Source: Malacoraja senta
Taxonomy: Eukaryota
Length of the DNA: 62,000 nt
Assembly: GCA_038087875.1 (NCBI GenBank)
Contig: CM075991.1
Span: 6,510,001 to 6,572,000, forward strand
Direction of reading: 5' to 3'
The notes beneath the pieces are model-generated. The model was not told where the DNA came from and did not search any database. It saw only the letters and a program-made list of their open reading frames with translations. Positions 17,498 to 58,112 of the stretch are shown here, piece after piece (within the stretch, counting starts at the first letter, position 1; each line of letters begins with the position of its first letter). The position numbers were made by a program, and so were the translations under genes.

Positions 17498-17688
17498 GAT
17501 AGACACAAATTGCTGGAATACCTCAGCGGGACAGACAGCATCTATGAAGAGAAGGAATGGGTGACATTTCGGGTCGACCCGCAACGTCACCCATTCCTTC
17601 TCTCCAGAGATGCTGCCGTCCTGGTGAGTTATTCCAGCATTTTGTGTCTATCTTCGATTTAAAACAGCATCTGCAGTTCTTTCCTGCA
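17498..17688. mobile_element. Short fold-back PLE-end element
   Basis: Inverted arms with the tail on the right. TSD CAGGAACTGTA(A/C)TCA at 17483-17497 and 17689-17703. Confidence 0.82.
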
Positions 17689-17740
17689 CAGGAACTGTAC
17701 TCAATTTGTCATCAAGTGCAAGTACATTTAGTATGATATA

Positions 17741-17875
17741 GAAACAAGGAACTGCAGATGCTGGTTTACAAAGAAGGCTGTAAAGTACTGGAGTAACTCA
17801 ACGCGTCAGACAGCCTCCCTGGAGAATGTGGATGCTGCCTGACCCGCTGAGTTACTCCAGCACTTTATGTCCTTC
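17741..17875. mobile_element. Short fold-back PLE-end element (older)
   Basis: gaactgcagatgctgg...ctggagtaactca...tgagttactccagcacttt; degenerate flanking duplication. Confidence 0.65.
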
Positions 17876-18494
17876 TATATTTAGCACGAGATACAGATAG
17901 GCAGATTCTCCATCAGTATGGAGCGCTGTGTGGGGATGTTTCACAATTCCATCCTCCACCACACCACATCCCAAAGGCTAGTTCTCACTTGCAGGCTCTG
18001 CATATGCTCTGGAATGCAACATTGAGCTAAATACTGATTCACTCTACTGGGTCTGAACTTTGTTAAGTTTGTGGCGTAGCCAAGCAAAACTAAAAGTGGA
18101 GCAGCTGGAGCAACTCAGCGGGAGGGGAGCTTCTGTGAAGAGAACTGTGAGGGTGGCATGGTGGCACAGCTGGTAGAGCTACCACCTCACAACGCCAGAG
18201 ACCCGGGTTCGATCCTGACCTTGGCTGCTGTCTGTGCAGAGTTTGAATGTTCTCCCTGTGACAGGTGCGTTTCCTCCGGGTGCTCCGGTTTCCTCCCACA
18301 TTCCAAAGACGTGCGGGTTTGTAGGTTAATTGGTTTCTGTAAATTGCCCCTAGTGCGTAGGAAGTGGACGCCAAAGTGGGATAACGTAGAACTAGTGGGA
18401 TCGACGTTCGGCGTGGACTCGGTGTCTCCAAGCTGTAATACTCTCTCTAAGCGGACAATCAACGTTTCCGTTGAGACACTTACTTTAGAGTTGA

Positions 18495-18802
18495 GGGCGG
18501 CACGGTGGCGCAGCGGTAGAGTTGCTGCCTTGCAACGCTGGAGACCTGGGTTCAATCCCGACTACGGGTGCTGTCTGTAGGGAGTTTGTATGTTGTCTCC
18601 GTGAACGCGTGAGTTTTCTCCGAGATCTCCGGCTTCCTCCCACACTCCAAAGACTTACGTGTATGTAGGTAAATTGGCTTGGTAAATGCAAAAATTGTCC
18701 CGAGTCTATGTAAGATAGTGTTAACGTGCGGAGATCGCTGGTCGGCACGGACCCGGTGGGCCGAGGGCCTGTTTCCGTGCTGTATCTTTGAACTAAACTA
18801 AA
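18495..18802 (+). mobile_element. tRNA-derived SINE (HE1/V-SINE-like), full length; tandem partner at 18151-18450
   Basis: A box TGGCGCAGCGG, B box GGTTCAATCCC, central ggagtttgta.gtt.tc.ccgtg...ggtttcctcccac-type domain, CR1-like 3' end, (AAACT)n tail. Confidence 0.85.
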
Positions 18803-19239
18803 CGAGAGGAGAGGAGCCAGAATAATGCAGAAGGGGGGCAAGAGCTGGCAGGCAATAGATGGATGCCAATAGATTGATTGCAAATTAACAATTAGGTGGC
18901 GGTTGGAACGGTAGAGATGGCAACAGAGACTGGGAGGTGACGTGAAGAGCTGGTGATTGGAAGAGTAGGTGAAGGATGGAATTATGAATGAGGGGTGGTA
19001 ACAAAAGGACACAAAAGAGAGTGAGGAGGTGTTGCAGTAGAGCAGGGGAAGAGGATCCAGTGGGAGGTATGTGTAGAGAGGGGGGGGGGGAAGAAACGGG
19101 GTGAAAGGGGGTGAAGGGCAGGGTGCAAGGAAGATGATGTGAGATGGGACCAGGATTGATAGGCAGATGTTTTTTTTTGCAACTGTGGAATCTTGCTGTG
19201 TTCAAAATGGCTGCCGTATTTCCCATCTTATAACACTAA

Positions 19240-54645: not shown

Positions 54646-55339
54646 GACACATACTATGAACCACCTCCAGTTTAAATTCCATTTGGAATATTTTGGAGGA
54701 CCAAGAAACCAAGAAACAATTTTCACATATATTGTGGAAAGAAACAGATCTCGGAGAAAACCCACGCAGGTCACCCGTCGTCAGGATCGAACCTGGGACC
54801 CTGGTGCTGTAAGGCAGCAACTCTACTGCTGCGCCACCTGTTACACTCGGTGTGGGATGGTGTTAGAGTACGGGGTGATCGCTGGACGGCGCCGACTCGT
54901 TGGGCCGAAGGGCCGGTTTCCACGCCGCATGTCTGAAGTCAAAAGTCTATAAGGTTACTCAAAGCAGAAGAGCAGGGATCACTATTAAAACAAAACACAG
55001 ATGGAATTGTTGAAGCGACGTGTTGTCGGAGAGGCTTGTGGAGTGTCCTGATGTGGAGGAGAGAACCATCCGTGCAGAGAGCCCGAGGCAGCATTCCTGC
55101 ACTGGCACCAGAACATGACAACTGTGTGTGACCTCAACCCGCTGCTGGATGTAAATATCTGGCACCATTCTGACCAGATGGCGGCTGAACCACCATTGCT
55201 GGCACAGGAAGGTGGTCTCTTGACCCTGACCCTCGGCCAACAGTGACGTGTGCATGGGCACAGCTACAACGGGGTGATGAAGAGGTCAATGCCCACTGGC
55301 TTGCCATCTGAATACTCTTGGGTGTGCTCTCCAGCATAG

Positions 55340-55630
55340 ACAAGAGAGATACAGCATGGATACAGGCCCTTCGGCCCAGCAAGTCCACGATGACCAGCGA
55401 TCATTCCATACACCAACCTATAGACACTGGGAACAATTTTACAACTTATCAAAGCTAATTAACCTACAAAGCTATACGTCGTTGGAGTGTGGGATGAAAA
55501 CCAGAGCAAACCAACGCGATCACTGGCAGAACGTGCAAACTCCGCACAGAGAGCAACCATAGTCAGGATCGAACCTGGGTCTCGGGCGCTGTGAGGCAGC
55601 AACTCTACCGCTGCACCACTGTGCCGCCCC
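55340..55630 (-). mobile_element. tRNA-derived SINE
   Basis: Consensus match. Confidence 0.78.
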
Positions 55631-56475
55631 GATGCTGCATACTGCTGGGAGGTTGAATAGTTGCAATGGTTGCAAGTTGAGAGGTTGAATACAGTCCCAC
55701 CAGTGCATGAGGTCCCAGAACCATTTAGACAAAGGGAAAGAAACTATGTTTTCTTGCTGATCTGGCAGATTTATTTCTGCTGAGCTTCCCATCTCGCTGG
55801 CTGCAGGCAGCCCACGTATTGTTTCAATTACTGTCTGACCACTGCCTACATTTACTGTCGCGCGTCCTCGCTGAAAACCCAAGCTCCAGCGCAGCACGAA
55901 CAGAGCCATTGGGTGGCAGCCAACTGTACTGCACGCTTCTCAGTTTAACCCTCACCGTCCCGGAATGCACGAGCTTTTGCAGTCATGTTGCTAATCAAAT
56001 AATTGGAACCTTTCGCTGGAATCGAACATAAAATCAAGTGACGCAGAAAAGAGGTTGGGATTCATCAGTCTTTTCTATTATTAAAACATTATGCCAGAGC
56101 TAAGGTTCACGGCCTCAGGCAAAATGGAGAAGCAAAGAACTGCAGATGCCGGTTAATACGAGAAAGGGCACTGGTGCTGGAGTAACTCAGCAAGTCAGGC
56201 AGCATCTCTGGAGAACATGGATAGATTGGTGTGGCCACCCTTGTTCTCCAGAGATGCTGCCACACCTGCTGAGTTAACACCAGCACTCTGTGTCCATTCA
56301 TGGCTCAGAGCTGCTCAAAAGGTTTTGTGGTTCACGCTGTGTGTGTATGACCTTTCAAGTAACGTGATAAGGTATCGCAAATAAAAGCATTAACATTGCT
56401 TCGTGGAACTAAAGGGCAACGGCAGCATGAAATGACTGGGAGACAGAACACTAGGGCAGATAAAACATGCAGGGA

Positions 56476-57108
56476 GCAACTGCAGATGCTGGTTTATAGT
56501 GAAGATAGTCACAAAATGTTGGAGTAACTCAGCGGGACATACAGCATCTCTGGAAAAAAAAGAATAGGTGGGGTTTCGGGTTAGAACCCTTCTTTGGACT
56601 GAAGAAGGGTTCCGACCTGAAACGTCACCTATTCTTTTTCTTCACTAGTGCTGGCGAACATTCCAAGTGCTGGAATGTGTAAACTTAAGGAACAGCACCT
56701 CATATTCCTCTTGGGTAGCTTAGAACCCAACGGTATGAATGTTGCATTTTCCCACTTTTGGTAATACCCAACCCTGTTCTCCCCTCTTTTCCCTGTGCCC
56801 CACCCATCTCTCCCACTATCCATCCCCATGCACCCTCTCCACCCCCCTACCCCCCCCCCCCTTATCTGACACCCTTTTGTCTCCTATTCATTTCTGTCCA
56901 CCCATCTGCCAAACAAAACCTTTGTATCCACCTATCACTTGCCATGCGTTGTCCTACCCCCAACTCTTTTCCAACCTCCTATTTTAGCCATTCAGTCTGA
57001 AGAAGTGTCCTCACCTGAATTATCACCAATTCATGTCCACTGGTGACCCAGTGAAGCAACATGGAGATGCTGCCTGACCTGCTGAGTTACTCCAGCACTT
57101 TGTGTTTT
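56476..57108. mobile_element. Diverged PLE derivative: reverse end, GIY-YIG C-terminal remnant, 3' UTR and forward end
   Basis: aaacttaaggaacagcacctcatattcctcttgggtagctta (KLKEQHLIFLLGSL), pyrimidine-rich UTR, PLE-end motifs at both sides. Confidence 0.6.
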
Positions 57109-57619
57109 ATTGGAGGAATACAATATTTTTGTAACAAAACTTGGGGTGAGCCTTGGACTATGCTTGGAGTTCTTGTAAGTTCTAACCAGAACCTTCTATG
57201 AAAGAGAATGCACATTATTTTGTTCTGGTGTGGGTAATTAGTACGGGTGTCAGGGGTAATGGGGACGAGGTAGGAGAATGGGGTTGAGAGGGAAAGGTAG
57301 ACAATAGACAATAGGTGCAGGAGTAGGCCATTCGGCCCTCTTTCTGTTACTATAACTTATGAACATCAGCAAGGTACATCAACTCAGACTAATTAATACT
57401 TAGATGATGTGATAATCTCATTCCAACCTATTATCTGGACTTATTTCTGATTTATGCATCACATACCATTGTCTGGGATCAGTACTAAGATTGAGACTCA
57501 TTTTGTAACCACAGCCAACATTCCGTTCTAGAACATCTGGGATGTCCTCCTTTCCCAGTAAACATGGTTTCCACCCCCACCACATCCCTTTTGAATGGAA
57601 GTATGATGAAACAATGTTA

Positions 57620-58112
57620 AAGAAGGAACTGCTGATGCTGGAAAATCGAAGGTAGACAAAAATGCTGGAGAAACTCAGCGGGTGAGGCAGCATCTATGCA
57701 GCGAAGGAAATAGGCAACGTTTCGGGTCGAAACCCTTCTTCAGACTGATGTAAGGGTGGGGGGGGGGGAGGCGGGAAGAAGAAAGGAAGAGGTGGAGCCA
57801 GTGGGCTGAGGGACAGCTGAGAAGGGGAGGAGAAAGTAGGGACTACCTGAAATTAGGGAAGTCAATGTTCATACCGCTGGGGTGCAAATGTTCATACCAG
57901 CGGTATGAACATTGACTTCTTTAATTTCAGGTAGTCCCTACTTTCTCCTCCCCTTCTCAGCTCTCCGTCAGCCCACTGGCTTCACCTCTCCCTTTCTTCT
58001 TCCCAGCCTCACATCAGTCTGAAGAAGGGTTTCGACCCGAAGCGTTGCCTATTTCCTTCGCTCCATAGATGCTGCCTCACCCGCTGAGTTTCTCCAGCAT
58101 TTTTGTCTACCC
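57620..58112. mobile_element. Non-coding fold-back PLE derivative (two inverted 3' UTR arms)
   Basis: Arms of ~220 bp are reverse complements around ~57882-57897. 14-bp TSD ATGAAACAATGTTA at 57606-57619 and 58113-58126. Only the left arm has the tail. Confidence 0.88.

What the first reader, a model, noticed from the sequence alone, without database searches (positions are those of the whole stretch)
17498..58112. A family of tiny non-coding fold-back elements built from Penelope-like 3' ends, each with a TSD and a one-sided ~35-nt tail
Seen: at least nine short insertions (1-113, 13921-14048, 17498-17688, 17741-17875, 25398-25650, 27171-27339, 28212-28350, 39258-39356, 43170-43397) and a larger one at 57620-58112. 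Each consists of the PLE 3' terminal sequence in two opposite orientations. One end stops at ...GT(C/G)TACC or a close variant, while the other extends ~35 nt (TCGATTTTCCAGCATCTGCAGTTCCTTCTTAAAC). Where readable, they are flanked by 12-17-bp target duplications. The coding PLE at 31006-33039 has the same architecture. Established: PLEs form inverted pseudo-LTR structures with a short 3' extension. Inference: these look like MITEs but are retro-products of the PLE RT/GIY-YIG enzyme, either an amplifying non-autonomous hairpin family or extreme truncation products of a two-ended integration mechanism. At roughly one per 5 kb they would be a major source of intronic dsRNA hairpins.
Basis: partly seen in the sequence, partly recalled or inferred. 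Interest (0 to 1): 0.72.

Follow-up and report, generated by a model that had tools for sequence, protein, structure and literature searches.

The report
Truncated two-armed Penelope retrotransposon insertions
The short hairpin-like insertions are real, but they are mostly ordinary: stubs left by a known kind of jumping gene that copies its RNA end inward from both sides of a cut, each stub joined at its own point rather than copied from one master hairpin element.

Summary
Real, and commoner than reported: 18 two-armed Penelope-like (PLE) 3'-end insertions in 62 kb, all head-to-head, and 16 of 16 scorable carry the ~35-nt tail on exactly one arm. All 18 junctions differ and several subfamilies are involved, so nothing points to a master MITE-like family. 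The parent is an RT + GIY-YIG PLE with a Neptune/Nematis-type linker. Inverted copy + one-sided tail + TSD is the published PLE architecture (PMC8557442, PMC3846280), and this scan noted it in two other windows. Best reading: extreme 5'-truncation products of integration primed from both nicked strands at two RNA start sites, as shown in vitro for another PLE (PMC11167929). Modest additions: the tail-only class, 2-5 nt target/template overlap at the tailed end only (11 of 12), near-symmetric breakpoints. No genome-wide, empty-site or RNA data were obtained; the loci probably lie in introns of an ANTXR-family gene.

The parts
1..113 (.). Two-armed PLE end, tailed arm left (cut by window edge at +7), breakpoints -62/-46, 4-nt microhomology; hairpin
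   Evidence: z -16
6091..6196 (.).
   Evidence: z +1.4
10961..11078 (.).
   Evidence: z +0.9
13921..14048 (.). Tail-only type: inverted tail (+35..+4) joined through a 3-nt microhomology to a tail-less arm from -98; TSD weak (8 exact, 14/17)
17499..17688 (.). Fold-back, tail right, symmetric junction -79/-79 at a 4-nt palindrome; TSD 14/15 at 17483-17497 and 17689-17703
17741..17876 (.). Older fold-back, tail left, -56/-46; TSD weak (14/18)
24206..24380 (.).
25397..25650 (.). Fold-back, tail right, complex junction with two extra templated pieces of the hammerhead region; TSD 16/18
27171..27339 (.). Fold-back, tail right, junction -69/-69 at a palindrome with no spacer; both arms share a variant seen in no other aligned copy; TSD 14/16
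28212..28352 (.). Fold-back, tail right (-57) and tail-less left (-47), in a pentanucleotide repeat; TSD 13/13
31006..33039 (.). Coding two-armed copy: tail-less 1.44-kb arm on the - strand (31006-32446) and tailed 0.59-kb arm on the + strand (32446-33039); TSD 13/13 at 30993-31005 and 33040-33052
31247..32446 (-). C-terminal half of the PLE ORF: RT core/thumb, CX4CxxC linker, GIY-YIG endonuclease with CCHH motif; 52% identical to an 803-aa RT protein
32905..33039 (+). Reference 3' end: hammerhead-like core (-92..-65), 8-bp stem (-44..-37 with +11..+18), tail-less terminus at 33003 (position 0), tail to +36
36928..37003 (-). Single tail-less arm with its own 13-bp TSD: the tail-less end can be an insertion end by itself
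39258..39357 (.). Tail-only type: tail-less arm to -49, 15-nt filler, then tail +1..+35; no hairpin; TSD weak (11/13)
40315..41312 (+). Single tailed 5'-truncated coding copy with a 15/15 TSD; 95-96% identical to the 31006 arms
43170..43397 (.). Old fold-back of another subfamily, tail right, arms 71% alike; no TSD beyond chance
44461..44676 (.).
49176..49305 (+). Single tailed arm from -100 with a short templated filler; TSD 13/13 in a pentanucleotide repeat
51425..51594 (.).
56130..56299 (.).
56470..56646 (.).
57618..58111 (.). Larger young fold-back, tail left, -252/-245 with an 11-nt templated duplication at the junction; TSD 14/14

Best explanation
These are dead-on-arrival, extremely 5'-truncated insertions of several subfamilies of a Neptune/Nematis-type PLE, each made in one event. 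Inferred steps: the GIY-YIG domain cuts both strands 13-18 bp apart, leaving two 3' ends; one end anneals by 2-5 nt to the AC-rich far end of the RNA (+33..+36) and primes the tailed arm; the other primes at the internal site (0..+3) with little pairing and makes the tail-less arm; both cDNAs stop early, usually within 100 nt, and are joined to each other through palindromes, microhomology or short templated fillers. That geometry forces a head-to-head product with a TSD and one tail. If the tailed cDNA is blocked before position 0 the product is the tail-only type with no hairpin; if only one end primes, a single arm with or without tail results. Shown here: anatomy, one-tail rule, unique junctions, TSDs, parent protein type. 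Shown elsewhere in vitro for a Poseidon PLE: both strands cut and extended, two start sites that delimit the tail. Inferred: the order of events and the number of RNAs.
For: 16 of 19 neighbouring hit pairs are head-to-head; 16 of 16 scorable loci have exactly one tail (p <= 1.5e-5 if arms were independent). TSDs enclose both arms in 7 two-armed loci at score >=10. All 18 junction pairs differ. In 6 clear cases (6091, 10961, 13921, 39258, 24206, 31006) the tail-less arm holds sequence that the tailed arm lacks, so it cannot be a copy of the tailed arm, and the tail cannot come from the tail-less arm. Single arms with TSD occur with the tail (40315, 49176) and without (36928). Partner arms share subfamily variants: 24 rare shared variants in 927 columns (0.026 per column; 15 in 857 without locus 44461) against 0.0046 in 488 non-partner pairs, and the partner is the best match for 15 of 28 arms. 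TSD overlaps the template end by >=2 nt at 11 of 12 tailed ends (chance 8e-5 or less) but at 2 of 9 tail-less ends (chance 0.4-0.9) (read by eye; null). PMC11167929 gives the biochemical parallel.
Against: Breakpoints of the two arms are closer than chance (9 of 14 within 10 nt, permutation p 0.00015; 8 of 12 short loci, p 0.007), which snap-back or central deletion explains at least as simply. Three of four tail-only loci break at -92 to -98, a hint of recurrence. The three-way test on the long copy shows no special kinship of its two arms (10/10/14 sites), so 'same RNA molecule' is not shown. The in vitro work is on a Poseidon element and reports priming without target homology. The overlap count is partly circular (the tail end is defined from these copies), includes two weak TSDs and two insertions in the same pentanucleotide repeat (7 of 8 without them), and could reflect a nuclease preference. 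One window only; no empty site was seen.
Confidence: 0.62

Rival explanations
1. Self-priming (snap-back): one cDNA, or an antisense template as proposed in PMC3846280, folds back at a short palindrome or microhomology and copies itself; the tail-less end is set by endonuclease resolution or a template jump to the target.
For: Near-symmetric breakpoints; junctions at palindromes (17499, 27171) or with 10-16 nt loops (1-113, 28212, 17741); in most near-symmetric loci the tailed arm is equal or longer; shared variants between arms; extra bases at 3 of 9 tail-less ends. In print.
Against: Cannot make the 4 tail-only loci, 24206 or 31006, where the tail-less arm has sequence absent from the tailed arm; a zero-spacer palindrome (27171) cannot fold back within one strand without later trimming; single tail-less insertions with a TSD exist (36928).
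Confidence: 0.2
2. The short forms are remnants of longer head-to-head insertions whose centres were deleted after integration (palindrome instability).
For: Near-symmetric junctions with microhomology; the two long loci are among the youngest (arms 96-97% alike).
Against: Equally young loci are already short (1-113 and 27171, arms 96%); old ones are not shorter; a zero-spacer palindrome persists at 27171; does not account for the tail-only type or the one-tail rule, which would still need the insertion mechanism.
Confidence: 0.08
3. One or more master non-autonomous hairpin elements are transcribed and copied as units by the PLE enzyme.
For: High density and narrow size range (100-250 bp); three tail-only loci break at -92 to -98; non-autonomous PLE derivatives exist.
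Against: 18 of 18 junction pairs differ, across several subfamilies; the same build occurs in a 2-kb coding copy; tail side is left in 9 and right in 9, as expected for either model, so gives no support.
Confidence: 0.07
4. The arms are separate insertions that landed next to each other, or the elements are DNA-transposon MITEs.
For: PLE ends are dense here (37 loci, 15% of the window by my list).
Against: Strict head-to-head orientation, one-tail rule, one TSD around both arms, subfamily match between arms; TSDs long and variable, ends asymmetric.
Confidence: 0.03

Closest known systems
Canonical EN+ Penelope-like element insertion units (PMC8557442, passages; PMC3846280, passages and Discussion)
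   Same: 5'-truncated copies, adjacent inverted copy head-to-head, 30-40 bp tail at one end only, TSD around the whole unit, palindromes at the inverted junction, RT followed by GIY-YIG with CCHH.
   Different: Here both arms are usually under 100 nt and non-coding, TSDs are 13-18 bp (8-10 bp in the rotifer cases read), and 4 loci have the tail alone as the inverted arm, which I did not find described in the passages read.
Neptune/Nematis clades of PLE (PMC8557442)
   Same: CX2-5CxxC linker before the endonuclease; two insertions in a microsatellite.
   Different: Clade not placed on a tree with named references; N-terminal half of the ORF is absent from the window.
PAc, Poseidon element of Anolis, in vitro (PMC11167929, parts 1-2 of 4 read)
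   Same: Two reverse-transcription start sites that delimit the tail, AC-rich start region, both strands cut and extended, hammerhead motif upstream, AT-rich targets (TSDs 69% AT versus 54% in the window).
   Different: Different clade; that paper reports no homology between start site and target, whereas tailed ends here overlap the target by 2-5 nt; it does not reconstruct two-armed products.
L1 twin priming (as summarised in a passage of PMC2246262)
   Same: Two target 3' ends prime two regions of the RNA and give an inversion; the tail-only loci match this directly.
   Different: Second priming site is fixed, not variable, and in 14 of 18 loci the arms overlap, giving an inverted duplication (non-overlap in L1 is recalled).
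Minimal PLE hammerheads and opposite-strand pairs in Schistosoma (PMC4209133, parts 1-2 of 4 read); non-LTR retrozymes (bioRxiv 10.64898/2026.07.22.740005, passages)
   Same: Minimal core with palindromic 15.2-16.2 positions; short opposite-strand pairs ascribed to truncated PLEs.
   Different: Not tandem monomers; many short arms stop before the core; helix I is poor and cleavage is untested.

Membership tests
Canonical EN+ PLE | One ORF with RT followed by C-terminal GIY-YIG endonuclease | tested here: met
   (Pfam GIY-YIG E 3e-4 to 5e-5; 52% identity over 398 aa to the C-terminal half of an RT protein)
Canonical EN+ PLE | CCHH motif with CxxC between GIY and YIG | tested here: met
   definition
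Canonical EN+ PLE | Inverted 5'-truncated copy, head-to-head, with a 30-40 bp tail at one end | tested here: met
   definition
Canonical EN+ PLE | Variable-length TSD | tested here: met
   10 of 21 loci tested score >=10, 13-18 bp
Canonical EN+ PLE | Hammerhead ribozyme in the terminal repeat | tested here: inconclusive
   Core motif in 12 of 15 pattern matches at PLE ends; no Rfam hammerhead at gathering score; MFE fold does not give the hammerhead; activity untested
Canonical EN+ PLE | Direct pLTR before a full ORF; tail continuous with the 5' UTR/ORF start | not testable with these tools
   No full-length copy in the window and no genome held
Neptune/Nematis PLE | CX2-5CxxC linker upstream of the endonuclease | tested here: met
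   (also in 66 of 80 homologues)
Neptune/Nematis PLE | RT phylogeny with named references | not tested
   No named clade references among the hits
Penelope/Poseidon PLE | Absence of the CX2-5CxxC linker | tested here: not met
MITE (DNA transposon; features recalled) | Terminal inverted repeats flush with both ends | tested here: not met
   35-nt one-sided tail in 16 of 16
MITE (DNA transposon; features recalled) | Short fixed TSD and uniform copies | tested here: not met
   TSD 13-18 bp; 18 different junctions
Master-driven non-autonomous PLE family | Junction shared by many dispersed copies | tested here: not met
   0 shared junction pairs among 18 loci in this window; genome-wide untested
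Non-LTR retrozyme | Tandem head-to-tail hammerhead monomers | tested here: not met
   1 of 19 neighbouring pairs is +/+ and 1 is -/-; 16 are head-to-head
L1-type twin priming product | Inversion without duplicated sequence | tested here: inconclusive
   Met in 4 of 18 loci, not in 14

The most novel reading that the evidence does not exclude
The copies record fixed-site twin priming by a two-RT (dimeric) PLE complex on one RNA: the first end aligns to the AC-rich template end by short base-pairing, in the manner of a telomerase primer, the second starts 35 nt upstream inside a stem-loop, and the trailing RT displaces the leading cDNA. That one scheme would explain the one-tail rule, the tail-only class, near-symmetric breakpoints and matched arms, replace the self-priming model for inverted pLTRs, and make this genome, with thousands of such junctions if the window is typical, a natural read-out of PLE integration and a steady source of intronic hairpin RNA.
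Probability: 0.33. Interest if true: 0.6.

Novelty: new member of a known kind. Interest (0 to 1): 0.32.

Why it matters
How PLEs make inverted repeats and the one-sided tail is still called undefined in the papers read. Very short two-armed copies give both integration ends and the junction in under 250 bp, so a genome-wide table would test twin priming against self-priming at little cost. For annotation, de novo tools could misfile them as MITEs. If transcribed in introns they add perfect helices of 13-66 bp about every 4-5 kb, but no expression, editing or small-RNA evidence was obtained. As a class, nothing new is shown.

Tried and rejected
No genome is held for this window. Pattern scans of viral contigs, metagenomes and prokaryote genomes gave 0 matches; a shorter pattern gave 103 metagenome loci, and the 25 best BLAST rows extend at most 31 nt, so they were treated as chance. 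Sequencing runs: 23 of 24 listed hold part of a 5.3-kb stretch, no RNA holder listed; no reads or contigs were laid, so empty sites and polymorphism stay open. Rfam: only a tRNA at gathering score. Covariation in the 3'-end stem: 0 of 14 predicted pairs show a two-sided change, so the stem is suggested, not shown. Hammerhead cleavage as the cause of short arms: rejected, many arms run through the predicted site and breakpoints scatter from -44 to -100. Tail length set by spacing of a repeated CAGCAT motif: rejected, the distances to the two termini differ (about 19 and 26 nt). Distant partners or TSDs for the remaining single arms: none at score >=7; the only 12-mer flank repeats found were repeat-derived. 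Single-arm 5' limits near -92 to -104 in the alignment are my cut points or the edge of cross-subfamily homology and were not counted as breakpoints. Middle ANTXR exons were not found by Pfam (137 + 142 frames) or by 6 of 7 recalled short motifs. Ten literature searches listed no paper describing this family in a cartilaginous fish or twin priming in PLEs; Repbase, Dfam, most subscription papers (such as the 2005 and 2006 PLE reviews) and all supplements were not seen and may well describe it.

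
Full report
Setting. No genome is held for this window, so the evidence is the 62 kb itself plus papers. 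Two exons of an ANTXR-family receptor gene lie on the + strand at about 448-546 and 12125-12203 (Pfam Anth_Ig), and a proline-rich frame after a splice acceptor at 61018-61305 looks, from recall, like the last exon of ANTXR1. The middle exons were not found, so the intronic position of the elements is likely, not shown.

Observation. All listed insertions exist. Eight in-window PLE ends gave 53 merged hits and none in the reversed window. I number positions from the tail-less terminus of the coding copy (window 33003 = 0; tail +1 to +36). There are 18 two-armed loci. Of 19 neighbouring hit pairs within 100 nt, 16 are head-to-head with 3' ends pointing outward; the others are one +/+, one -/- and one +/- pair of separate elements. 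In 16 of 16 loci with both ends readable exactly one arm has the tail; two loci were left out because the right arm has lost its end. If arms were independent the chance is at most 1.5e-5. Thirteen folded loci give hairpins with z from -6.6 to -39.9 and the coding copy has arms 96-97% complementary. Four loci (6091, 10961, 13921, 39258) do not fold (z -1.5 to +1.4): their tailed arm is the tail alone, ending at +11, +13, +4 and +1.

Target duplications. A search with nulls gave score >=10 for 10 of 21 loci (10961, 17499, 25397, 27171, 28212, 31006, 57618 two-armed; 36928, 40315, 49176 single), 13-18 bp, against 2 of 420 mispaired ends and 3 of 400 random pairs. 13921, 17741, 39258, 43170, 44461 and 9160 score 6-8 and are not separable from chance; five others show nothing.

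Parent. The 31006 copy holds the C-terminal half of a PLE ORF on its long arm: RT, a CX4CxxC linker and a GIY-YIG domain with CCHH. It is 52% identical to the best of 80 longer homologues, 66 of which share the linker pattern. PMC8557442 (passages) assigns that linker to Neptune and Nematis and says Penelope/Poseidon lack it. The 3' end holds a minimal hammerhead-like core (definition in PMC4209133), not detected by Rfam at gathering score, and an 8-bp stem joining -44..-37 to the tail, without covariation.

Master family or per-insertion products. Breakpoint pairs (left/right arm) are -62/-46, +11/-92, +13/-95, +4/-98, -79/-79, -56/-46, -100/-44, -95/complex, -69/-69, -47/-57, about -1440/-557, -49/+1, -93/-87, -64/-73, -89/-75, -64/-61, -97/-95, -252/-245 (values for old copies are uncertain by about 10 nt). 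None repeats, and the loci fall in several subfamilies. Junctions sit at short palindromes, at 1-4 nt microhomologies, or hold templated fillers. Partner arms match in subfamily: best match for 15 of 28 arms, rare shared variants 0.026 per column against 0.0046; the long copy shows no kinship beyond subfamily. This favours junctions made anew at each insertion, on one window's evidence.

Mechanism. A staggered cut with 3' overhangs gives two primers; if each copies the RNA 3' region, the product is head-to-head inside a TSD (inference from standard TPRT geometry). PMC11167929 shows in vitro, for a Poseidon element, cutting and extension of both strands and two start sites whose spacing is the tail. 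Here each two-armed locus uses each site once, and single arms with a TSD occur with either end. In six loci the tail-less arm has sequence that the tailed arm lacks, so two RNA-templated starts are needed. At tailed ends the TSD overlaps the AC-rich template end by 2-5 nt in shifting registers in 11 of 12 cases; at tail-less ends 2 of 9 reach 2 nt (read by eye; nulls). This suggests pairing-guided priming at the far site only, with the caveats that the tail end is defined from these copies and that dropping two weak TSDs and two microsatellite targets leaves 7 of 8. Against a plain two-primer model, breakpoints within a locus are nearer than chance (9 of 14 within 10 nt, p 0.00015, values entered by hand). 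Two RTs on one RNA would give this, but so would snap-back, the self-priming model of PMC3846280, or later central deletion. Both routes may operate.

Comparison and novelty. Inverted 5'-truncated copy, one-sided 30-40 bp tail, TSD and junction palindromes are all described (PMC8557442; PMC3846280; PMC8969392 passage), and short opposite-strand pairs were noted in Schistosoma. Two earlier unchecked notes of this scan reach the same verdict on other windows; I had written my reading before seeing them. The MITE, retrozyme and master-family features tested are not met. In ten searches I found no listing for this family or for twin priming in PLEs, but Repbase, Dfam, supplements and older reviews were out of reach.

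Verdict. A real and dense set of truncated insertions of a known kind. Interest 0.32: the class is known; the value lies in the tail-only type, the one-tail rule and the asymmetric priming signature, which a genome-wide count could turn into a test of an unsettled mechanism. Empty sites, genome-wide counts and RNA evidence remain open.

Noticed in passing
window 448-546, 12125-12203, 61018-61305 (+): Exons of an ANTXR-family host receptor gene; the whole window is probably inside this gene, with very long repeat-filled introns. Middle exons not located.
   Followed up: partly
window 17078-17149 (-): Single tRNA-Pro(AGG) gene, 51.6 bits, 350 bp from the 17499 element and antisense to the host gene.
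   Followed up: no
window 8169-8560 (-) and 56681-57112 (+): Decayed coding fragments of older PLE subfamilies, 28-36% and 67% identical in short stretches to homologues.
   Followed up: partly
window 5319-5425, 9160-9300, 10118-10199, 11100-11341, 16410-16680, 16700-16795, 20190-20640, 22956-23067, 30820-30932, 40093-40224, 43838-43897, 60495-60600: Further single-arm PLE ends, about half tailed; subfamilies share only the last ~100 nt plus tail and differ upstream. All PLE loci on my list cover about 15% of the window.
   Followed up: partly
window 19458-20276 (-): Single RT fragment of another LINE type with the ALKBH8_N-like C-terminal motif.
   Followed up: no
window 51774-52853 (-) and 15 other places; SINE at 18150-18460 and 22 other places: CR1-like LINE pieces (16 loci, 6%) and a tRNA-type SINE (23 loci, 6%) by in-window BLAST; many form long-range inverted pairs that could also give dsRNA. 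Family names are recalled.
   Followed up: no
window 26113-26292 (-): Weak CENP-B N-terminal domain match (E 3.5e-4, below the curated cut-off), probably a pogo/Tigger transposase remnant.
   Followed up: no
window 20800-21418 and 28406-28605: A 600-bp degenerate pentanucleotide array and a 200-N assembly gap.
   Followed up: no
window 3902-4885 and 33298-33975: Two related GC-rich repeats with long overlapping open frames; not classified.
   Followed up: no
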